NCBI GenBank assembly: GCA_020059045.1
Contig: JAGVCW010000022.1
Coordinates: 1 to 21,943 of the forward strand
Origin: Minisyncoccota bacterium
GTDB taxonomy: Bacteria > Patescibacteriota > Minisyncoccia > Phycocordibacterales > Zambryskibacteraceae
Length of the DNA stretch: 21,943 bases
Direction of reading: 5' to 3'
Shown: positions 1 to 20,048 of the stretch, one piece after another
Layout: every line of letters starts with the position of its first letter
Numbering within the stretch: position 1 is the stretch's first letter
Made by a program: the position numbers and the translations under genes
The notes under the pieces: generated by a model
Seen by the model: only the letters and a program-made list of their open reading frames with translations
Databases searched by the model: none
What the model was told of the DNA's origin: nothing

Positions 1-201
1 CAGCACCTGTAAGGTGAAAGGTTCCTCTCCTCGGCACAAACAAATACGCAGTTTTTTGTTTGTCCGAAGAAGGTTTACTTTCGGGGAGGACTTGAAAAGG
101 CTGAAGATATCGCACGGAGCTTGCGAGTACGATATGAAGCCTGTACAGCCTCTGTAAGAGGAAAGACTCTTCCAATTCTGTAAGGATCAAGATTCCTCTC
201 C
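1..201 (+). repeat. three imperfect direct repeats of about 28 nt, each carrying a short CTGTAAG hairpin, upstream of the first promoter
   Basis: Units at 1-30 (CAGCACCTGTAAGGTGAAAGGTTCCTCTCC), 146-173 (CAGCCTCTGTAAGAGGAAAGACTCTTCC) and 176-201 (TTCTGTAAGGATCAAGATTCCTCTCC). Units 1 and 2 form 4-bp stems with a TGTAA loop (CACC/GGTG and CCTC/GAGG). Confidence 0.45.
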
Positions 202-223
202 ATTTACACAAAGTCGTTTATTC

Positions 224-251
224 TTGACATTCCTTTTTTTTATGATATTAT
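224..251 (+). promoter_or_regulatory. sigma70-type promoter, TTGACA-16 nt-TATTAT, about 70 nt upstream of the 321 CDS
   Basis: TTGACA at 224-229, TATTAT at 246-251, and AAGGAG as ribosome-binding site 9 nt before the ATG at 321. Confidence 0.6.
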
Positions 252-320
252 GACAGCAGATTCGGTCTTTGAAATCTACTCAAACCGCGCCGCTGCGCAC
301 ACTGCAAAGGAGCAACTTAA

Positions 321-1562
321 ATGAAGCCAGAATCACTCTTCAAGGCCCTTTTCTGGGTCCTGTGGATATTGGCATTACTTTTTAGTCCAGTATCCACAAT
401 CACTATCTCAGCCATAATTCTCTCGGTTGGATGGATTCTCAGGCGAATGGCAGATAAGGAGAAGCTGTGGGGTTTCATACCGGCAAACACATTTGCATTG
501 ATTACTCCTCGAGGAAATAACGATCCTCATGTCACTAAAGAGGAAGTGACAAGCGCCGACATTGTAGATGTTTTACATGCGGTACCTGGCAAAAGATTGG
601 ACAAAACCAGCAAGAATAGCATGGAGTGGACTTTTGTTGATGGCCAAGAGGAACGTGGTTTGATAGGTTGGATTCTTTTCAAAACTCTTGGTATCCAATG
701 GATAGGCTTGTACCGCACTAGACGAACTAACCTTGTAAAGGAGTTTGTCTTTGGGAGAGATGAAAATCAATCAAGTTACATTGTTGCTCCTAAGGACAAG
801 ACAAGTAAAGATGTTTTCTTTTCCGGAAGTCAGGCTGTTATCGTCCCTCGAGTAGAGATGGCTGACGCTCTTGGTCTTACTATTGCTTTCATCACGATCC
901 TGGAGCGAACCCAACCAGTCAAGTCTGTGATGCGGGTTGCGGATTCAAATGCCAATCTGTCTGCCAAAGCACGGAAAAAGGTGCTTCGTAATGCCGGCAC
1001 TGTTACCGCACAAGATTTCATTGGTGGTCCAAACAGTGCTCAACACAAGGAAAAGTTGGAAATAGAAATACGTGATCTTTCGTCCAAGGACGTTGGAATT
1101 ATACCCGAAGCTCTGCAGGAACTCGGGCTGACAATAACTTCTGCCGACCTAGAAGATGTTGATTATGATGCTACGACTAAAGCACTTCTCCAACAAAAGA
1201 CCGCTGCACGAATCGCTGGAGAGGCTAAAGTAATTGAAGCGCTAGCAGATAGAGACGCAAAGTTTGCACGCATCGAAGCTGAAACTGCAGAAGTTAACAA
1301 AGTCATTCTCCCCCAGGCAAGAACTGCTGGAGCTGCCCGTATTCGCGAAGCGATGGCCTACGAGAAAAATAGTACAGTTCGTACGTTTGCACCAGGTGGC
1401 CGCGGTGGTTTAGGGATTATTACAGGAGATACGGAGAACGATTCCACTACTCGTCCTAGAGGCGGGGCAAACCCCGGAAGAGGATTGTCAGCGGCTCCTG
1501 AACCCACAGAACCTGCACAAACGACTCCATCTGATCCTACGGCAGTAGTGCCAAGTAAGTAG
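321..1562 (+). CDS. SPFH/band-7 (stomatin/HflK-like) family membrane protein with an N-terminal TM anchor and a Pro/Thr/Gly-rich C-terminal tail
   Basis: Strong AAGGAG ribosome-binding site. N-terminal hydrophobic helices (FWVLWILALLF...ISAIILSVGWIL). The central region (VIVPRVEMADALGLTIAFITILERT ... QQKTAARIAGEAKVIEALADRDAKFARIEAETAE) resembles the SPFH beta-sheet followed by an Ala/Glu-rich coiled helix. The C-terminal tail is low-complexity. Confidence 0.55.
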   Translation: MKPESLFKALFWVLWILALLFSPVSTITISAIILSVGWILRRMADKEKLWGFIPANTFALITPRGNNDPHVTKEEVTSADIVDVLHAVPGKRLDKTSKNSMEWTFVDGQEERGLIGWILFKTLGIQWIGLYRTRRTNLVKEFVFGRDENQSSYIVAPKDKTSKDVFFSGSQAVIVPRVEMADALGLTIAFITILERTQPVKSVMRVADSNANLSAKARKKVLRNAGTVTAQDFIGGPNSAQHKEKLEIEIRDLSSKDVGIIPEALQELGLTITSADLEDVDYDATTKALLQQKTAARIAGEAKVIEALADRDAKFARIEAETAEVNKVILPQARTAGAARIREAMAYEKNSTVRTFAPGGRGGLGIITGDTENDSTTRPRGGANPGRGLSAAPEPTEPAQTTPSDPTAVVPSK

Positions 1563-1574
1563 ATTGGGATTTCG

Positions 1575-1605
1575 AGCTAAGTACTTTTGTACTTAGCTTT
1601 TTTAA
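1575..1605 (+). terminator. Rho-independent terminator
   Basis: AGCTAAGTAC-tttt-GTACTTAGCT is a perfect 10-bp stem. It is followed by TTTTTTAA, immediately after the stop at 1562. Confidence 0.75.
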
Positions 1606-1608
1606 TAC

Positions 1609-1637
1609 TTGCAATTTAAATATGAATATGGTATAAT
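1609..1637 (+). promoter_or_regulatory. sigma70-type promoter, TTGCAA-17 nt-TATAAT
   Basis: TTGCAA at 1609-1614 and TATAAT at 1632-1637. A GAGGT ribosome-binding site precedes the ATG at 1688. Confidence 0.6.
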
Positions 1638-1687
1638 ACCGCCAGAATGAACATCGTCAAAGACACAACTCTAACCCATGAGGTAAC

Positions 1688-3298
1688 ATGTCTGACCGCA
1701 TAAGGAATTGGTTAGTGCGAGTTATCGACCGCTTGGAGAATCACTTGCGAAATCGTCGGATTAGGAACGCGGCACGAGGGCAGCCTACACAGTCGACTTG
1801 GTGGCCAGCAGGGCTAAGGAGAGACCCAGCGACAATAATGACAGCCCTACTTCTGGCAGTAGTTTCGGTAGTTGCAATTTTTCAGCTTAGCAAACTACCA
1901 TCTGTTATCAGTGGAATTTTCAAATCTGGTGAGGATGCCTGCTTGACTGCTGATCTTGCAAGATCTGCTGGAAGGGTGGACGCAATCGCCGAAGCCGCAT
2001 GTGCGGCACACCGCGAGCCGATAGAGTGGGCAGTATTGGGGCTTCGAGCTCTCGTTGTTATTGTAGTAATTATTATCCTCGTATTAGTGTGGAAATTTGT
2101 TCGTAGGCGATGGATGAGACCTACTGCAGCTCCTACTGCTACAGCAGGAGCTGCAGTAGCAACTCCAAGAGGAGCGGGAACATCAGGAATTTCATGGAAG
2201 TATGTTGGTGTACTAGCTCCTATTGCTGTTTTCTTCATCTTCAGTTGGGCACTGTACGCCTTTTGGGCTGAGTTCAGTGGTGAAGCTGGAAGAAGTTATT
2301 TCTGGAACGAATGGTTCTGGAGCACAAACTTCTGGCTACTGCTCATAATTGCACTAGCAGCATGGATCGGAGCGTTCTTCGTCAGCAATAAAGCTTTCAT
2401 TCCTTATGTTGTGGTGATCGTTATTGTAGCCCTAGCTACAACGTACAAAGACATCCGAGAAGGTCTCGCTGGCAAAGTGGTAGCAGGACCACTGCCGGGT
2501 GTAGTCGTCGCATCCGCGGTTGCTACTTTCCCGGAGAACCCGAGTGATAAGTGGAGAACTGCCGATCTTGATTCGGCTCGTACATATCTCGATTTTCCAC
2601 AGGACTCGATGTTTCTCGAGATCTTTGCGTGTGAGTCGAGCGGTATTCACTACACCGATTCTGCACGCACAGAGGTGTTACGAGGGAGGGTTGATAGCTC
2701 CGATGTGGGTATTGCTCAAAACAATGAGCGAATCCATAGAGATCTACTTGATTCCCTTGCAGCAAGTCCGGACTCAGCGGAATATTATGACATATACACC
2801 ATCCGGGGTAATGTCAATTTCGCTAAACACCTGCGATATCGCAAGATCCGCGCAGGAAGAACCGGTCTTCGGATTTACGAAGACTGGAATGCTTCTCGTC
2901 ACTGTTGGGAAAGACATGAGGGTAGCCGGTCGCGTACTGTCGAGCAACAGGTGGTAGAGTCTCCATTTGGCCCACCTCCATCACCGGATCCAATCAGATT
3001 CGTTGATAGGAAGCTTGTAATCCCAGCCGGAGACACAAGCTGGACAAACACGATAACTAGGCCAAGTATGGAGTATGAAGTCTATTGGAATACGGGAGGA
3101 CCATCATATATCGACCTCATTGCTCTCGTAAATGGGCGAGACACAGTAAGTCTGAATGCGAGCGTTGCATACAGGCCGATACGGAACTTCCGTTCGATAT
3201 CGTATAGGACAAGGGTACCTGTAGAGATCCCTGTTGAAATTTATGTCTGTATGCTCAGGCGTAACGAGGCACGGATCCTAGCACAATGTACTGATTAG
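1688..3298 (+). CDS. hypothetical polytopic membrane protein, about 5-6 TM helices, with an Ala/Thr-rich linker and a roughly 270-aa soluble C-terminal domain
   Basis: The ORF is 536 aa with a ribosome-binding site. Hydrophobic segments: TALLLAVVSVVAIF, LVVIVVIIILVLVW, VGVLAPIAVFFIFSWALYAFW, FWLLLIIALAAWIGAFFV and IPYVVVIVIVALATT. No recognisable catalytic motif. GC is elevated relative to most of the window. Confidence 0.6.
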   Translation: MSDRIRNWLVRVIDRLENHLRNRRIRNAARGQPTQSTWWPAGLRRDPATIMTALLLAVVSVVAIFQLSKLPSVISGIFKSGEDACLTADLARSAGRVDAIAEAACAAHREPIEWAVLGLRALVVIVVIIILVLVWKFVRRRWMRPTAAPTATAGAAVATPRGAGTSGISWKYVGVLAPIAVFFIFSWALYAFWAEFSGEAGRSYFWNEWFWSTNFWLLLIIALAAWIGAFFVSNKAFIPYVVVIVIVALATTYKDIREGLAGKVVAGPLPGVVVASAVATFPENPSDKWRTADLDSARTYLDFPQDSMFLEIFACESSGIHYTDSARTEVLRGRVDSSDVGIAQNNERIHRDLLDSLAASPDSAEYYDIYTIRGNVNFAKHLRYRKIRAGRTGLRIYEDWNASRHCWERHEGSRSRTVEQQVVESPFGPPPSPDPIRFVDRKLVIPAGDTSWTNTITRPSMEYEVYWNTGGPSYIDLIALVNGRDTVSLNASVAYRPIRNFRSISYRTRVPVEIPVEIYVCMLRRNEARILAQCTD

Positions 3299-3305
3299 TA
3301 TGAGT

Positions 3306-4338: not shown

Positions 4339-4411
4339 TAAAGTAATTGTAATTTAGAATACTTTAAAATATTGCTTCTTACAATTAGCTTATGACCTTG
4401 CATTTCTTAAC

Positions 4412-4443
4412 AAAAGACCCCGCCTAGGCGGGGTCTTTTGTTA
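4412..4443. terminator. bidirectional Rho-independent terminator
   Basis: AAAA-GACCCCGCC-tag-GGCGGGGTC-TTTTGTT is a 9-bp GC-rich stem flanked by an A-run and a T-run. It ends the minus-strand pilin operon. Confidence 0.8.
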
Positions 4444-4492
4444 ATCATCATTCGTTATTCCTTATTCTCTATTCTTTATATCTTATTCTTCT
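4444..4492 (-). repeat. heptad-periodic purine tract, (NNN)GAAT repeated about 5 times on the minus strand, between the stop codon and the terminator; repeat family copy 1
   Basis: On the plus strand, ATTC occurs at 4450, 4457, 4464 and 4471 with period 7, and again at 4485. The reverse complement, GAAGAATAAGATATAAAGAATAGAGAATAAGGA, matches 14291-14323 at 30 of 33 positions. Confidence 0.6.
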
Positions 4493-4759
4493 TCAAAACG
4501 GAAATCTACCTGAAATATTTACACCGATTGTGTCCATAACAATCCTTATGATTCCGTAGACTCCGAACATTATAAACATTCCAATAACACCCCATAGCAT
4601 GTTTTTCTGACCTTGCTCTCGGTTCTTAGCATCTTCTGTATTAGTAAGGAATTGGAATATCCCCCACAGAAATACTAGGAGTGCTATCGCAAACATAAGG
4701 AGAATGAGTGGGTTTAAGATAAACTGATTTATCTTACCCAAAAACGGAGCAATGGACAT
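4493..4759 (-). CDS. TrbC/VirB2-like pilin-family small membrane protein, paralog 6, lacking the signal peptide and ectodomain
   Basis: Two TM helices separated by a charged loop (FLWGIFQFLTNTEDAKNREQGQKNMLWGVIGMFIMFGVYGII) match the family core of the upstream paralogs. It lies 15 nt after paralog 5. Confidence 0.5.
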   Translation of the reverse strand: MSIAPFLGKINQFILNPLILLMFAIALLVFLWGIFQFLTNTEDAKNREQGQKNMLWGVIGMFIMFGVYGIIRIVMDTIGVNISGRFPF

Positions 4760-13159: not shown

Positions 13160-14284
13160 ATGAAAGAGAAAGATACTAAGGAGGAAGTGCAGGACGAAGA
13201 AGGTGTAGAAGCGAAGAAAGATAGTGTGATGACAGCATTCTTGTCTAAGAGTGCGACTCCCCCATCTGTCGATGATCTAGTAGAAGGTGTAGTTATAGGT
13301 ATAGACAAGTCAACAGTTTATATAGATTTACCACCATTTGGCACAGGAATAATCTACGGCCGAGAGTTTTTGAACGCGCGTGACATAATCAAAAAAATAA
13401 ACCTTGGTGACTCTGTGGCAGGTAAAGTAGTTGCTCTTGATAACGCAGAAGGTTATATAGAAATTTCTCTAAAGGAAGCACGCCAAGCACTCATATGGGG
13501 TGAAGCAGAGGACGCGATTAGAGACAAGAAGGTGTTTGAACTTCCTGTCACGGATGCAAACAAAGGTGGGCTCATCATAGTATGGCAAGGTATTCAAGGA
13601 TTTCTCCCAGCTTCACAGCTTAAACCAGAGCATTACCCACGTGTCGGCGACGGAGACAAAGACAAGATTCTCGACGAATTGAGAAAACTCGTAGGACAAA
13701 AAATTTCTGTCTCTATAATCGGAGCAGTTCCAAAGGAAGGAAAGCTTATTTTCTCGGAAAAAGACGGGGAGAGTAAGGATAAGGGTGCAATTATAGACAA
13801 GTACACTCTTGGTGATGAAGTACCTGGTGAAGTAACTGGCATTGTAGACTTCGGAGTGTTTGTAAAGCTTGAGGAAGGGCTTGAGGGTCTTGTGCACATT
13901 TCAGAAATGGATTGGGCACTAGTAGAGAATCCTAGATCAATGTACAAAGTCAGTGACAAAGTTAAAGTAAAAATTATTGAAATTAAGGACGGCAAGGTTT
14001 CCCTATCTATCAAAGCTCTGAAACCAAACCCTTGGGTTGAAGCAGCCAAGAAGTACAAGAAGGACGATGAAGTCAAAGGTGTGATCATTAAATTCAACAA
14101 GCATGGAGCTCTTGCATCAATTGAAGAAGGTGTGGCTGGACTTGTACACATTTCAGAATTCGGAAGCGAAGATAAATTGAGAGAGAAACTTGAACTTGGA
14201 AAAACATATGATTTTAAGATTACCCTCTTTGATCCTAAAGAGCAGAAAATGGCTCTCTCGTTTGTAGAAAAAGGGAAGGAATAG
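13160..14284 (+). CDS. rpsA: 30S ribosomal protein S1, short four-S1-domain form
   Basis: Repeated S1 domains with a GxV and L/I-VHISE signature: GEVTGIVDFGVFVKLEEGLEGLVHISEM and VKGVIIKFNKHGALASIEEGVAGLVHISEF. A 374-aa short form. Confidence 0.85.
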   Translation: MKEKDTKEEVQDEEGVEAKKDSVMTAFLSKSATPPSVDDLVEGVVIGIDKSTVYIDLPPFGTGIIYGREFLNARDIIKKINLGDSVAGKVVALDNAEGYIEISLKEARQALIWGEAEDAIRDKKVFELPVTDANKGGLIIVWQGIQGFLPASQLKPEHYPRVGDGDKDKILDELRKLVGQKISVSIIGAVPKEGKLIFSEKDGESKDKGAIIDKYTLGDEVPGEVTGIVDFGVFVKLEEGLEGLVHISEMDWALVENPRSMYKVSDKVKVKIIEIKDGKVSLSIKALKPNPWVEAAKKYKKDDEVKGVIIKFNKHGALASIEEGVAGLVHISEFGSEDKLREKLELGKTYDFKITLFDPKEQKMALSFVEKGKE

Positions 14285-14330
14285 AACGAGGAAGAATAAG
14301 GAATAAAGAATAGAGAATGAGGAGGAAATA
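14285..14330 (+). repeat. heptad-periodic purine tract, (NNN)GAAT repeated 4 times, immediately after the rpsA stop; repeat family copy 2
   Basis: GAAT at 14294, 14301, 14308 and 14315. GAAGAATAAGGAATAAAGAATAGAGAATGAGGA matches the reverse complement of 4444-4492 at 30 of 33 positions. Confidence 0.6.
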
Positions 14331-14350
14331 CAGTTGTAGGGAGGCGGAAC

Positions 14351-14385
14351 AAAAATTCTTCTGAAAGTCAGAAGAATTTTTGTTT
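14351..14385 (+). terminator. Rho-independent terminator for rpsA
   Basis: AATTCTTCTGA-aag-TCAGAAGAATT is a perfect 11-bp stem followed by TTTGTTT. Confidence 0.8.
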
Positions 14386-14422
14386 ATGTGAATACAAGCC
14401 TGCAAGTTTGTGGAGGTTGCAA

Positions 14423-16889: not shown

Positions 16890-18104
16890 ATGAAAGCAGA
16901 AAAAACAAACAAAAAAAAGCAGGCAGGTAAAGTTGCTGCGTGGGAAGCAAAAGATATGACTAAAGAAATGATTACTGCTTCGTATTTTGGATTTATTCCC
17001 ACAAAAACTCCAGATGTATCGAAGGACGACCACTCGAAACTCCGATCACTTAAAGATCCGTATTACGAAACAGACCGAATACATGCAGAATATCCGTTCT
17101 CATTTGATGCATTAGAAAAAATTGCTTTGTTCCGATCATATCTTGATTGGGGGATTGCCTCTCTTCCACACCCGGTTCTAATGTCATACAGAAAGCCAGT
17201 TCATGGGACAGAACACAAGAAGGGTACAGACTCTATCCTAGGGCTTGAAGCGTTCGGGCTTTCTGGTAGCGCCGCTGAAGCATTGCTTCTCAGGTCTGCG
17301 CTTTCAATATTAGAGGACTTGGGCTTCAAAAATCTCTGCATAGAGATAAATAGCATTGGGGACAAGGAGTCAGTTGCTGATCTCGAGCGTGCTACCGGAA
17401 CATTTGTTCGCAAAAATATTAACGCCATGAGTGCTGAAGAGCGAAGACTCGCAAAAAAAGATGTCTTTGATCTACTTCGCACCCCAAGCGAGAGATCTGA
17501 TACTGTTCCGGAAGTTCCGAAATCAATAAGTTTTCTGTCGGAGAACTCACGAATTCATTTCAAGGAAGTGCTTGAGTATATTGAGAGCTTCAATACTCCT
17601 TATACTATCAATTCTTCTCTTATCGGCTCCCCTTGCTTCTGCTCCGAAACAACTTTTAAGATTATGGAAGACGATGGAAAGAACAAGCAAACTCTTGCCC
17701 TAGGATACAGATACTCAAGACTTTCAAAAAAGATTGGTTTCAAAAAAGAACTGCCAGCAATGGGGGTAACTATTTCCCTCGACAAGAAAGATTCTGCAAA
17801 GCTCCCTAAGAAACAGTTTAAACCAAAATTTTATCTTATACAGCTCGGACTCGGTGCTAAAATGCGTGCCCTAGAAGCCATAGAAGTTCTAAGACACGCG
17901 AAGATTCCTGTGGCATTCTCGCTTGGCAAAGACAAGTTCCAGAGTCAACTTGGAAGTGCCGAAAACATGAAGGTTCCTTATGTGCTTATAATTGGACAGA
18001 AGGAGGCAATAGAGAATTCTATTGTAATAAGAGATATGAATACTCGAGTGCAAGAGACCGTAGAAATTAAAGAGCTACCGGACTACATAAGGAAGTTGAA
18101 GTAA
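16890..18104 (+). CDS. histidyl-tRNA synthetase-like class II aaRS-fold protein with an anticodon-binding domain; the N-terminal catalytic motifs appear degenerate
   Basis: IEINSIGD resembles E. coli HisS [49 protein letters not shown] resembles [51 protein letters not shown] resembles [20 protein letters not shown]...[11 protein letters not shown] resembles GGRYDGL...PAVGFAMGLER. The C-terminal [21 protein letters not shown] is an anticodon-binding fold. RGxxD, LRPEGT and GRYRQF are not recognisable. Coupled to lepB (TAA then ATG). Confidence 0.55.
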   Translation: [404 protein letters not shown]

Positions 18105-18231: not shown

Positions 18232-19083
18232 GTGGATGCACTCGAGACGGTTAGACGAGAAAGAGCAAGGAAAGGCATACCCGCTCCTGCCAAGAAACCG
18301 TTTGAAAGGGACGGAGCAGCGAAGTTCAAAAAGAATATTCGCCAGGCTATACTAGGTGCTGTATACTCCACCCTACCCAAATACTGCAATGTATGCAGTA
18401 ATCAGATTGAATACAGAGGTGAAAGTGCTGACAAGTGGCATCGCATCAGTCGCTGTAACAAATGCCAAGAAAGTGATCGTCACTCCCCAGAAGAAAAGTT
18501 CTGCAGTTACTGTTTGGTTATGATTGATCGTAGTGCATACATTGCAAACGATGGTACACCGATTGGATGGGGAGCTGTTTCGAGATGTACTACCTGCCGT
18601 CCCATTATCGATGACCTCATGCGCTACGTAAATAGGAGTGTTGAACAACTCACCACAAAGTTATCTTGCAGGCTTGGAGAAGCGATAGATCGTAAATCTG
18701 GTAAGAAAACCACACCACTACGTAGCCCAAGCAACAAACAACTCTCACTTCTGAAAGACCACGGAATAGCAGCGCCGCCAAATCGTCTTAGTTGCTATCG
18801 TCTCATCAACTACCTAATCATAGGAAATGAGACACTGGGAAGAAATTTCTCCGAACGTGTCAGAATTACACTTCGCTATCAGAAAAAGTGGATTGGCCGG
18901 AGGGTCTCTCTTTATGGAAGAACCGGAAAGGTTTTATGGCTCCTTCCTGTTCGTACTACGGAGGTCCTCCAACTGCGAGAGACGCACGGACACAAAAGGT
19001 TTCATCCTTTCAAAGCAGTTTTTAAGGGTGATGATAACAAAGGAAAAGTAATATTCTTATCTTTTCTGAAACAAGAAGACTAG
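18232..19083 (+). CDS. hypothetical protein with an N-terminal double zinc-ribbon region (four CxxC pairs)
   Basis: GTG start with an AAGGA ribosome-binding site. CNVC...CNKC and CSYC...CTTC. Basic C-terminal half. GC is higher than its neighbours. Followed by a strong terminator. Confidence 0.5.
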   Translation: MDALETVRRERARKGIPAPAKKPFERDGAAKFKKNIRQAILGAVYSTLPKYCNVCSNQIEYRGESADKWHRISRCNKCQESDRHSPEEKFCSYCLVMIDRSAYIANDGTPIGWGAVSRCTTCRPIIDDLMRYVNRSVEQLTTKLSCRLGEAIDRKSGKKTTPLRSPSNKQLSLLKDHGIAAPPNRLSCYRLINYLIIGNETLGRNFSERVRITLRYQKKWIGRRVSLYGRTGKVLWLLPVRTTEVLQLRETHGHKRFHPFKAVFKGDDNKGKVIFLSFLKQED

Positions 19084-19121: not shown

Positions 19122-19343
19122 TTGCAATTGCGGAGAATCCTTAGACGACTTGTCGCTAGGGTGAATCCGCAAATACAGACTAGATGTCGGCGAAGCCGAC
19201 ACTGCTTAGAACATTGTTTGCCCTGATGCCTCGTCTAATACCCTGCCAAAGCTTTGTGAGGAAATAGCTTATTACGAGGTATAAGACGAGGCCAATTTTA
19301 TTTACTTTACGTTCTGCTGCTCATGTGCTAATATTTTACCCCT

Positions 19344-19586: not shown

Positions 19587-19965
19587 ATATAACCTAAGCA
19601 TTCGCAATCTTACAAAAGGCAAGGCTCTCCCCTTGCCTTTTGTAAAGATTAAGCAAGCAATACTTGGCAATAAGTATGATTTGTCTATTGTCTTGTGTGG
19701 GGATGCTCTATCACACAGACTTAATCGAATATACAGAGGGAAGGACAAACCCACAAATGTACTATCATTCCCTCTTTCAAAACAAAAGGGAGAAATTTTT
19801 TTAAACTTGCCGCTATTAAAGCGGGAAGCACGTACAAACGATTTAAGCTTCATGATTTATACTTCACGAATGCTTATCCACGGTCTACTTCATTTGAAAG
19901 GAATGGAACATGGCGCTACAATGGAGCAAGCAGAGCAGAAGTTTTTCATTAAGTTTAATATTTGA
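19567..19965 (+). CDS. ybeY: rRNA maturation endoribonuclease YbeY
   Basis: YRGKDKPTNVLSFP and the metal-binding motif HGLLHLKGMEHG (H-x3-H-x5-H). Its start overlaps the rpsU 3' end by 20 nt. Confidence 0.8.
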   Translation: MSDAEDKYNLSIRNLTKGKALPLPFVKIKQAILGNKYDLSIVLCGDALSHRLNRIYRGKDKPTNVLSFPLSKQKGEIFLNLPLLKREARTNDLSFMIYTSRMLIHGLLHLKGMEHGATMEQAEQKFFIKFNI

Positions 19966-19975
19966 AAAACTTTCG

Positions 19976-20038
19976 CGAATGAGGAATAAGGAATGATGAG
20001 TTAAGAGAATTATTCGTCATTCGATTTTCGTCATTCGC
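19976..20038 (+). repeat. heptad purine tract, (NNN)GAAT repeated 3 times, plus an inverted-repeat hairpin after the ybeY stop; repeat family copy 3
   Basis: GAATGAGGAATAAGGAATGATGA matches GAATAAGGAATAACGAATGATGA in copy 1 at 21 of 23 positions. Flanked by GCGAATGA (19975-19982) and TCATTCGC (20031-20038), an 8-bp inverted repeat, with an extra inner TCATTCG copy. Confidence 0.55.
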
Positions 20039-20048
20039 CATTTCATTT

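What the first reader, a model, noticed from the sequence alone, without database searches (positions are those of the whole stretch)
14285..14385. A dispersed heptad-periodic purine element, (NNN)GAAT repeated 3-5 times, sits between the stop codon and a hairpin at three unrelated genes
Directly after the rpsA stop, GAAT recurs at 14294, 14301, 14308 and 14315 with an exact 7-nt period. It is followed by a perfect 11-bp terminator hairpin. The 33-mer GAAGAATAAGGAATAAAGAATAGAGAATGAGGA matches, at 30 of 33 positions, the sequence directly after the last pilin gene stop on the minus strand (4444-4492). A related tract follows the ybeY stop (19976-20000). In all three cases the purine strand is the mRNA strand, the element begins within 10 nt of the stop codon, and a hairpin follows. 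Seven nucleotides is not a DNA helical repeat. This points to an RNA-level function such as an RNA-binding-protein landing pad, a GGA-rich CsrA-like motif, a 3'-UTR stability element, or the scar of a small mobile insertion. I know of no described family with this structure.
Basis: seen in the sequence. Interest (0 to 1): 0.7.

Follow-up and report, generated by a model that had tools for sequence, protein, structure and literature searches.

The report
GAAT-core heptanucleotide repeats in intergenic spacers
The purine tracts after three genes are real, related copies of an imperfect 7-base repeat (GAAT plus three looser bases), and they belong to an already described but still unexplained class of bacterial intergenic heptamer repeats, here found in a Parcubacteria (candidate phyla radiation) genome.

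Summary
GAAT recurs at an exact 7-nt period after the S1 (rpsA), T4SS-pilin and ybeY stop codons: 9 pattern hits against 0.2 expected.

Syntenic Zambryskibacteria-like relatives have the same terminators directly after the rpsA and pilin stops but no heptads. The arrays are therefore lineage-specific insertions between the stop codon and a pre-existing terminator. Some relatives carry GAAT arrays at other spacers; others carry none.

Across 10 arrays in 4 related genomes, the 5' end of the purine strand always abuts a gene boundary. Five follow a sense stop codon and five sit against the start codon of a gene on the other strand. The unit consensus is GAAT-R-A-N, with the core almost invariant and the spacer about 60% variable.

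The unit length, placement rule, inverted pairs and turnover between relatives match the GGGAATC and GGGGAYT heptamer repeats of Xanthomonas and Nostoc (Rehm 2015). So "no described family" is wrong. This is a new member without G-tracts, which argues against G-quadruplexes as the general explanation. Function remains unknown. An RNA-level role is possible but not shown, and CsrA-type GGA sites are not supported.

The parts
14285..14329 (+). Heptad array 1: GAAGAAT-AAG GAAT-AAA GAAT-AGA GAAT-GAG GAGG. It is a purine-only tract in the rpsA (S1) 3' UTR.
   Evidence: It folds to 0 kcal/mol as RNA. It is absent from the orthologous rpsA 3' regions of L121, L124 and L125.
14347..14386 (+). Native A-tract/stem/T-tract terminator of rpsA, with a 15-bp perfect stem at 14350-14364 / 14368-14382.
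   Evidence: -21.5 kcal/mol, z -4.7. Relatives have terminators of the same architecture (A-tract, stem, T-tract), directly after the stop in L121 and L124 and about 60 nt after it in L125.
4445..4492 (-). Heptad array 2, with six registers (five perfect GAAT, one degenerate ATAT). It starts immediately after the TGA of the last T4SS-pilin gene (4493-4759).
   Evidence: It matches array 1 at 30 of 33 positions. It folds to 0 kcal/mol. It is absent after the orthologous pilin genes of L121 and L125.
4407..4444 (-). Native terminator hairpin after the pilin gene: TTAACAAAAGACCCCGCC-TAGG-GGCGGGGTCTTTTGTTAA.
   Evidence: -29.1 kcal/mol, z -7.7. Relatives have equivalent terminators without heptads.
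19975..20001 (+). Heptad array 3a (CGAATGAG GAATAAG GAATGAT GAG), lying 10 nt after the ybeY stop. It forms the 5' arm of a hairpin.
   Evidence: An orthologous array with 5 perfect GAAT units is present in L125.
20012..20042 (-). Heptad array 3b, the inverted copy: GAATGAC GAAAATC GAATGAC GAATAAT on the minus strand, read as ATTC-type units on the plus strand. It ends 6 nt before the ftsA ATG (20049) and forms the 3' arm of the hairpin.
   Evidence: best nhmmer hit, E 3.7e-5.
19975..20038 (+). Interrupted hairpin formed by arrays 3a and 3b in the ybeY-ftsA spacer.
   Evidence: -29.6 kcal/mol, z -4.7. The orthologous L125 spacer no longer folds significantly (-14.1 kcal/mol, z -0.5).

Best explanation
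These are copies of a lineage-specific family of imperfect heptanucleotide repeats. The unit is GAAT-R-A-N, with 3-6 units per array. They are of the same kind as the intergenic GGGAATC and GGGGAYT heptamer repeats of Xanthomonas and Nostoc.

Shown:
- The arrays are additions to short intergenic spacers. They sit between a gene boundary and a hairpin that is already there in relatives.
- They come and go between related genomes.
- At least arrays 1 and 2 are copies of one another, not independent local slippage products.
- The 5' end of the purine strand always abuts the nearest gene boundary. The purine strand is therefore transcribed as a structure-free 3'-UTR tract after a stop codon, and the complementary pyrimidine strand lies in the leader just before a start codon.
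- Where both halves are present they form a long hairpin with the purine arm 5'.
- The GAAT core is held nearly invariant while the 7th base is free.

Inferred:
- The arrays spread by copying (recombination or an unidentified mobilising activity) plus occasional slippage.
- They persist only in the orientation that is translationally harmless. In that orientation there are stops in all three frames after a gene, and no Shine-Dalgarno-like or AUG motifs before one.
- Their main physical effects are to space the terminator away from the stop codon or, as inverted pairs, to add a stem-loop between genes.
- They are not a dedicated regulator of the three genes.
For: Statistics of the period.

Insertion between the stop and a native terminator. 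L121, L124 and L125 lack heptads after rpsA and after the pilin gene, although synteny is conserved.

Patchy distribution in the lineage: the window has 4 arrays, L125 has 2, L260 has 3 and L261 has at least 1. L121, L124, L258 and L259 have none.

Placement: in 10 of 10 lineage arrays the 5' end of the purine strand lies 0-57 nt from a gene boundary, and within 20 nt in 9 of 10. Five follow a sense stop and five abut the start codon of a gene on the other strand. None has the opposite orientation (with the gene tables).

The same rule holds in a crude ORF analysis of 266 GAATRRN arrays from other genomes and viral contigs. Arrays lie closer to the 5' neighbour in 49 of 66 and 51 of 84 cases, with medians of 17-28 nt against 83-114 nt. 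Inverted partners lie downstream against upstream in 14:1 and 20:1 cases.

Core against spacer differences between adjacent units: 6 of 132 against 59 of 99.

Arrays 1 and 2 share 30 of 33 positions, including the order of spacers.

The purine tracts fold to 0 kcal/mol.

The published class has matching properties: a mode of 4 units, 89-93% intergenic, an average of 28 nt from the 5' ORF against 160 nt from the 3' ORF, 70-75 convergent inverted pairs per genome, and length and sequence variation between related species (PMC4692102).
Against: - The near-perfect conservation of GAAT, beside a spacer that differs at 60% of positions between neighbouring units, is not what neutral decay of a slippage product predicts. 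It points to sequence-specific recognition or a templated generating mechanism that I could not identify. Detection required at least 3 perfect 4-mers, which inflates the contrast somewhat.
- The harmless-orientation filter explains why purine arrays avoid sense leaders. It does not explain why pyrimidine arrays avoid the position just after stops.
- Only 22 kb of the source genome, and about 170 kb of relatives from one syntenic region, could be examined. Several arrays are not independent: 3a with 3b, window site 3 with the L125 ybeY array, and L125 trxB with L260 trxB.
- No mobilising enzyme or target-site duplication was found.
Confidence: 0.55

Rival explanations
1. RNA-level recognition array. 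Each GAAU(RA) core at a fixed 7-nt step is bound or cut by a factor acting on the single-stranded 3' UTR just upstream of the terminator hairpin. Candidates are an oligomeric RNA-binding protein or a ribonuclease that prefers single-stranded A/U-rich sites next to a stem. The factor would set mRNA stability or termination efficiency.
For: - Strand rule relative to genes: purine strand in the mRNA after stops in 5 of 5 stop-proximal arrays, and a bias in the same direction in other taxa (PMC4692102).
- Strong core conservation with a free 7th base.
- The tract is completely unstructured, hence accessible, and always lies 5' of a hairpin.
- In L125 the GAAT arm stays perfect while the complementary arm and the hairpin have decayed.
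- Most Xanthomonas repeats are transcribed (PMC4692102).
Against: - Half of the lineage arrays put the pyrimidine strand, not GAAU, into the adjacent gene's mRNA. These are the start-proximal arrays.
- The arrays are absent from the orthologous UTRs of close relatives, so they are not needed for these genes.
- There is no Rfam family and no candidate binding protein.
- The CsrA-type GGA motif is not a conserved feature.
Confidence: 0.25
2. The basic unit is the inverted pair: a purine array, a loop, then a pyrimidine array. It acts as an intergenic stem-loop, either a terminator or an RNA-stabilising or processing hairpin analogous to REP/BIME. Sites 1 and 2 would be half-elements that use, or grew next to, a native terminator.
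For: - Site 3 is such a pair (-29.6 kcal/mol).
- Many GAAT arrays in other phyla are true inverted repeats with matched unit variants, for example L029, L037, L081, L109 and L111 and L129 and L130.
- The polarity is strongly purine arm first, with downstream partners in 34 cases against 2 upstream.
- Xanthomonas has 70-75 convergent pairs per genome.
Against: - Sites 1 and 2 have no pyrimidine partner, and their hairpins are unrelated native terminators.
- The orthologous L125 pair has lost its pairing without compensatory change.
- Most arrays in the wider sample are single.
Confidence: 0.1
3. Duplex-DNA binding array. A protein that binds one heptad per dimer, as the RHH omega/ParB of pSM19035 does on WATCACW heptads, coats the arrays. 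The arrays would then act as operators, centromere-like sites or nucleoid sites.
For: - There is precedent for contiguous 7-bp heptads, direct or inverted, with a threshold of at least 4 units (PMC9499535).
- Typical array length here is 3-6 units.
- The core is conserved and one position is free.
Against: - A duplex binder does not predict the consistent strand orientation relative to stop and start codons.
- The arrays lie after genes rather than over promoters.
- The heptad sequence is unrelated to WATCACW.
- No RHH or ParB gene is evident in the window.
Confidence: 0.07
4. Chance low-complexity purine or AT-rich sequence, with no relationship among the three sites.
For: - The genome is AT-rich (about 40% GC).
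- Heptamer arrays of many different cores are common in sequence databases.
Against: - 9 hits against 0.2 expected, with 0 of 100 shuffles reaching 9.
- 30 of 33 identity between sites 1 and 2.
- The same core recurs in all real heptad arrays of the related genomes.
Confidence: 0.02

Closest known systems
GGGAATC (Xanthomonas) and GGGGA(C/T)T (Nostoc) intergenic heptameric simple-sequence repeats (Rehm et al. 2015, PMC4692102)
   Same: - 7-nt unit with a conserved core and variable positions. GGGAATC rotated is GAATCGG, so it also contains GAAT.
- About 4 units is typical.
- About 90% are intergenic.
- They hug the 5' neighbouring ORF: within 50 bp of the stop on the coding strand, or upstream of a start on the non-coding strand.
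- Convergent inverted pairs are frequent.
- Length and sequence differ between related species.
- Function is unknown.
   Different: - The units here are A-rich with no G-tracts, so G-quadruplex formation, the property emphasised in that paper, is impossible.
- The host is a Parcubacteria (CPR) genome.
- The copy number per genome is unknown.
Heptanucleotide 'long simple sequence repeats' of prokaryotes (Mrazek 2007) and cyanobacterial heptamer repeats (STRR; three heptanucleotides of Calothrix PCC7601). Cited from the summaries in PMC4679880 and PMC4692102.
   Same: Tandem 7-nt units are over-represented in intergenic DNA of particular lineages and are dispersed over the genome.
   Different: Classical long SSRs are near-perfect, slippage-type arrays. 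Here no array is perfect, and adjacent units differ at 60% of spacer positions while the core is fixed.
TAACTGA direct repeats of marine Beggiatoaceae, Cyanobacteria and Bacteroidetes (MacGregor 2015, PMC4679880)
   Same: Dispersed heptamer direct repeats of 2-6 units in intergenic regions, close to gene boundaries. A post-transcriptional role has been proposed but not shown.
   Different: Those lie mostly a few nucleotides upstream of start codons on the coding strand, and only one inverted set was found. The unit is different.
REP / BIME / REPIN elements
   Same: Short dispersed extragenic repeats placed after stop codons. They often occur as inverted pairs forming hairpins in 3' UTRs, and they vary between relatives.
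   Different: REPs are imperfect palindromes mobilised by RAYT (Y1) transposases. The arrays here are non-palindromic tandem heptads, and no RAYT is present in the window. Separate REP-like palindromes do exist in the relatives L260 and L261.
omega/ParB (RHH) heptad operators and parS of pSM19035 (PMC9499535)
   Same: Contiguous 7-bp units in direct or inverted orientation, with at least 4 units needed for function.
   Different: The sequence differs (WATCACW). Those are promoter-overlapping plasmid sites bound on duplex DNA, with no strand rule relative to genes.

Membership tests
Intergenic heptameric SSRs of the GGGAATC/GGGGAYT type (Rehm 2015) | Tandem 7-nt unit, at least 2 copies (typically about 4), perfect or heterogeneous with a conserved core | tested here: met
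   Arrays have 3-6 units. 41 of 43 lineage units carry a perfect GAAT core.
Intergenic heptameric SSRs of the GGGAATC/GGGGAYT type (Rehm 2015) | Intergenic and close to the 5' neighbouring ORF: after the stop on the coding strand, or before a start on the non-coding strand | tested here: met
   Met by 4 of 4 window arrays and 10 of 10 lineage arrays. The same bias appears in 266 arrays from other taxa.
Intergenic heptameric SSRs of the GGGAATC/GGGGAYT type (Rehm 2015) | Frequent convergent inverted pairs | tested here: met
   Window site 3a/3b and the L125 ybeY-ftsA spacer are inverted pairs. The polarity is purine arm first.
Intergenic heptameric SSRs of the GGGAATC/GGGGAYT type (Rehm 2015) | At least four G-tracts able to form a G-quadruplex | tested here: not met
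   There is no GGG run in any unit. This is a property of the published examples rather than of the positional class.
Intergenic heptameric SSRs of the GGGAATC/GGGGAYT type (Rehm 2015) | Many copies dispersed over the genome (about 180) | not testable with these tools
   The window is the whole 21.9-kb contig. The source genome could not be retrieved. Local density is 4 arrays per 22 kb, and 0-3 per 21 kb in relatives.
Intergenic heptameric SSRs of the GGGAATC/GGGGAYT type (Rehm 2015) | Variable between related genomes | tested here: met
   Arrays are absent at the orthologous rpsA and pilin sites of L121, L124 and L125. The ybeY-ftsA array is shared only with L125.
Slippage-type simple sequence repeat (VNTR) | Near-identical adjacent units and copy-number polymorphism between strains | tested here: inconclusive
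   Only 2 of 33 adjacent unit pairs are identical, which argues against recent slippage. The only strain-level pair available (L260 and L583) is 100% identical.
REP/REPIN elements | Imperfect palindrome with a conserved 5' tetranucleotide, associated with a RAYT (Y1) transposase | tested here: not met
   Arrays 1 and 2 have no self-complementarity (0 kcal/mol). No Y1 transposase is present in the window.
CsrA/RsmA binding sites | Conserved GGA, preferably in hairpin loops, overlapping a Shine-Dalgarno sequence | tested here: not met
   GGA appears only when the free 7th base is G (10 of 43 units). The tract is unstructured and lies downstream of stop codons.
Intrinsic terminator (the hairpins at sites 1 and 2) | Stable stem-loop followed by a T-run at a gene's 3' end | tested here: met
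   Free energies are -21.5 and -29.1 kcal/mol, with flanking A- and T-tracts. Terminators of the same architecture occur at the orthologous positions in relatives that lack heptads.
Any Rfam family | Match at or above the gathering score | tested here: not met
   There are 0 hits in the whole window.
RHH omega-type heptad operator / parS | WATCACW heptads bound by an RHH dimer on duplex DNA, overlapping promoters | not tested
   Only the 7-bp periodicity and the threshold of at least 4 units resemble it.

The most novel reading that the evidence does not exclude
The conserved core at a strict 7-nt step, the strand rule relative to stop and start codons, and the purine-first polarity of inverted pairs are shared by the A-rich GAAT arrays of this CPR lineage and by the G-rich heptamers of Xanthomonas and Nostoc. 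These shared features would reflect one common, still unidentified strand-aware process. Candidates are an oligomeric single-strand nucleic-acid-binding or cleaving factor, or a transcription-coupled generating mechanism. If so, heptamer repeats would be a general bacterial UTR element, and G-quadruplex formation would be incidental.
Probability: 0.15. Interest if true: 0.7.

Novelty: new member of a known kind. Interest (0 to 1): 0.4.

Why it matters
Intergenic heptamer repeats are the most abundant long simple repeats in many bacteria, yet they have no accepted function. The best-studied examples were interpreted through G-quadruplex formation.

The arrays here obey the same placement, orientation, unit-number and inverted-pair rules without any G-tract, and they sit in a reduced CPR genome where spare intergenic DNA is scarce. 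This suggests the rules come from something other than G4 structure. It also gives a compact system in which to look for the responsible factor: four arrays in 22 kb, with empty orthologous sites in close relatives.

For annotation, it warns that these tracts are insertions in UTRs. They are not regulators specific to rpsA, the pilin gene or ybeY.

Tried and rejected
(1) Association with four-helix-bundle (23S-IVS/Avd-like) genes. One array (L044) sits just upstream of such a gene. An iterative HMM over all ORFs of 120 loci found the family in only 4 loci, 3 of them adjacent to an array. This is not a general explanation.

(2) A 'three-frame stop cassette' as the selected function. In the window, stops follow each gene stop at +12/+19/+26, +7/+14/+21 and +14/+21/+28, and the antisense strand is open. 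However, stop-bearing units are about as frequent in start-proximal arrays (14 of 21) as in stop-proximal arrays (17 of 22); I counted these by hand from the units. Xanthomonas GGGAATC contains no stops. This is therefore a by-product of the motif.

(3) GAAT as a universally special core. The genome, metagenome and viral scans all returned many GAAT arrays. No cross-phylum GAAT family can be claimed.

The hairpins at sites 1 and 2 are unrelated native terminators that are present in relatives without arrays, so there is no joint structure to model.

(5) Alternative genetic code with TGA read as sense. The ybeY TGA aligns with TAA stops in relatives, so the code is standard.

(6) Recovering the rest of the source genome. 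Exact-protein look-ups failed, and the specific 21-mer scan of metagenomes returned only unrelated contigs.

(7) Strain-level copy-number variation. The only close pair (L260 and L583) is identical.

(8) Flank-unit conservation analysis. It is confounded by the search pattern, so I discarded it.

(9) Pfam scan of the unannotated window ORFs for a binding protein or transposase. Nothing relevant was found.

Full report
**What is in the sequence**

The window is a whole 21,943-bp contig of a Parcubacteria genome. Its S1 homologues are named Zambryskibacteria or Paceibacterota, and the 100%-identical protein sits on a contig of exactly this length.

- Site 1: after the S1/rpsA stop (TAG, 14282-14284), GAAT recurs at 14294, 14301, 14308 and 14315.
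- Site 2: after the last T4SS-pilin gene (PF18895; TGA 4495-4493, minus strand), GAAT recurs at 4488, 4474, 4467, 4460 and 4453, with one degenerate unit between.
- Site 3a: after ybeY (TGA 19963-19965), GAAT recurs at 19977, 19984 and 19991.

The pattern GAATN3GAATN3GAAT with at most 1 mismatch gives 9 hits against 0.20 expected, and TRF calls period 7 at each site. It consists of ATTCGTC-type units at 20012-20042, which read as GAAT heptads on the minus strand, and it ends 6 nt before the ftsA ATG. A profile of the units finds nothing else in the window.

**Structure**

As RNA, the purine tracts at sites 1 and 2 have no structure at all (0 kcal/mol). Each is followed by a strong A-tract/stem/T-tract terminator, at -21.5 and -29.1 kcal/mol. 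The site-1 stem is 15 perfect base pairs, not 11. At site 3 the hairpin is made by the array and its inverted copy (-29.6 kcal/mol, z -4.7).

**The copies are related**

The site-1 33-mer matches site 2 at 30 of 33 positions, including the order of the variable spacers (AAG, AAA, AGA). Under a null that draws units from the lineage's own unit pool, P is about 0.002. These are copies of one another, not independent slippage products.

**Comparison with relatives**

S1 homologues at 80-87% identity lie on syntenic contigs.

- In L121, L124 and L125 the rpsA stop is followed by a terminator of the same A-tract/T-tract architecture with no heptads (directly in L121 and L124, about 60 nt downstream in L125). 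In L121 and L125, the two relatives that cover the pilin locus, the pilin stop is followed directly by such a terminator, again with no heptads. The window's arrays are therefore additions between the stop codon and a pre-existing terminator.
- The ybeY-ftsA spacer of L125 aligns with the window (80% identity over the two-sequence alignment) and carries five perfect GAAT units. Its complementary arm has decayed and no longer folds significantly (-14.1 kcal/mol, z -0.5).
- L125, L260 and L261 carry further GAAT/ATTC arrays at other spacers: upstream of trxB, after a CAP-domain gene, and after the hisS-like gene. L121, L124, L258 and L259 have none.
- Apart from one ACAACCG array in L125 (19032-19057, inside the called trxB ORF), every clear non-homopolymer heptad array in these genomes has the GAAT core.

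**Rules that emerge**

(i) In 10 of 10 lineage arrays the 5' end of the purine strand lies 0-57 nt from a gene boundary, and within 20 nt in 9 of 10. [quoted passage not shown] Five abut the start codon of a gene on the other strand, so the pyrimidine strand lies in that gene's leader. None has the reverse orientation.

(ii) Adjacent units differ at 6 of 132 core positions but at 59 of 99 spacer positions. The consensus is GAAT-R-A-N with the 7th base free. Detection required three perfect 4-mers, which inflates the contrast somewhat.

(iii) The purine array always lies 5' of a hairpin or of its own inverted copy.

**Wider occurrence**

A scan of one genome per species for GAATRRN x3 + GAAT hit the 120-locus limit. 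The loci came from Cyanobacteria, Bacteroidota, Verrucomicrobiota, Acidobacteriota, Chloroflexota, Planctomycetota, Alphaproteobacteria and Clostridia. Many are purine-array/loop/pyrimidine-array inverted repeats with matched unit variants.

A crude ORF-context analysis of 266 such arrays from genomes and viral contigs gave three results:
- Arrays lie closer to the 5' neighbour in 49 of 66 and 51 of 84 cases.
- Median distances are 17-28 nt to the 5' neighbour against 83-114 nt to the 3' neighbour.
- Inverted partners lie downstream in 34 cases and upstream in 2.

Control scans with the cores GATA and AGTA also saturated, and unbiased GAATNNN arrays have diverse spacers. I therefore cannot claim that GAAT is a special core across phyla. 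Heptamer arrays in general are common.

**What is already known**

- Heptanucleotide repeats are reported as the most abundant long simple repeats in many prokaryotes (Mrazek 2007, as summarised in PMC4679880).
- Rehm et al. (PMC4692102) describe about 185 GGGAATC arrays per Xanthomonas genome, and GGGGAYT arrays in Nostoc. The arrays are heterogeneous, (GGGANTN)n, with a mode of four units. They are 89-93% intergenic, on average 28 nt from the 5' ORF against 160 nt from the 3' ORF, within 50 bp of the stop on the coding strand or upstream of a start on the non-coding strand. There are 70-75 convergent inverted pairs per genome, and the arrays are mostly transcribed. [quoted passage not shown] Their function is unknown.
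- MacGregor (PMC4679880) describes TAACTGA repeats next to start codons.

The window's element fits the positional class feature by feature. The exception is G-tracts, which it lacks.

**Interpretation**

I file it as a new member of this known, unexplained class.

- Its inference from '7 is not a helical repeat' to RNA is unsafe, because the RHH omega/ParB protein binds contiguous 7-bp heptads on duplex DNA and needs at least four (PMC9499535).
- Its CsrA/GGA idea fails, because GGA depends on the free 7th base.
- Its 'scar of a small insertion' and 'sense-strand, stop-proximal' points are borne out.

My best account (confidence 0.55) is a copied and dispersed heptamer family that persists only in a translationally harmless orientation. 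In that orientation it adds an unstructured spacer or, as a pair, a stem-loop.

The fixed core beside a free spacer is the main fact this account does not explain. It keeps an RNA-level, or more generally single-strand-level, recognition array alive as the main rival (0.25).

**Dead ends**

- The link to four-helix-bundle genes holds in only 3-4 of 120 loci.
- The stop-cassette idea fails because stop-bearing units are equally frequent in start-proximal arrays.
- There is no Rfam match.
- There is no retrievable source genome.
- There is no strain-level variation to examine.

Noticed in passing
L261:480-1290: A 211-aa Y1 (HuH) transposase-like gene (weak PF01797 hit, RAYT/IS200-like) replaces the methyltransferase/SBP genes next to gyrA. 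It is flanked on both sides by the palindrome AATTGAGACGTCC(R)ACGTCTCAATT, which is a REP/RAYT-like arrangement in a Parcubacteria genome.
   Followed up: partly
L260:14310-14345, 19235-19265, 19300-19335: A REP-like palindrome, CCACTTGGAAACT(C/T)(G/A)GTTTCCAAGTGG, occurs three times in intergenic spacers. In two cases it lies next to an ATTC heptad array.
   Followed up: no
window 18232-19083: A 283-aa Cys-rich ORF with weak double-zinc-ribbon hits lies between the hisS-like gene and ybeY. It has no counterpart in any of the syntenic relatives, so it is probably an insertion.
   Followed up: partly
window 1-3300: The GC content is 44-49% here against about 38-41% for the rest of the contig. 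The region holds an SPFH/Band-7-like ORF (321-1562) and a 536-aa ORF without family hits (1688-3298).
   Followed up: no
L044:1100-1576, L066:6714-7398, L026:40-633: GAAT heptad arrays lie immediately upstream of small genes. By sequence alone (from memory, not checked against Pfam) these resemble four-helix-bundle / 23S-rRNA-IVS (Avd-like) proteins.
   Followed up: partly
L129, L132, L133 (metagenome contigs, 64-67% GC): AT-rich arrays (GAATAAAGAATAGAGAATAAGGA, about 26% GC) sit in very GC-rich contigs, in L129 as an inverted pair. They are compositionally foreign to their hosts.
   Followed up: no
window 16890-18104 and orthologues: The 'hisS-like' 404-aa protein hits only the anticodon-binding domain confidently. 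The catalytic HisRS domain scores below threshold (20.6 bits against a cutoff of 25).
   Followed up: no
window 14323-14339, 4452-4405, 19992-20003: The 3' ends of the arrays create Shine-Dalgarno-like motifs followed by tiny ORFs: GGAGG-N8-TTG-TAG at site 1, ATGATGATT... (14 codons running through the terminator) at site 2, and ATGATGAGTTAA at site 3. These are probably by-products of GAATGAT units.
   Followed up: no
L261:3700-3830: A stretch of about 130 nt is rich in irregularly spaced ATTC (GAAT on the gyrA strand). It overlaps the gyrA start and two small called ORFs, and may be a degenerate long array or a Glu/Asn-rich coding extension.
   Followed up: no
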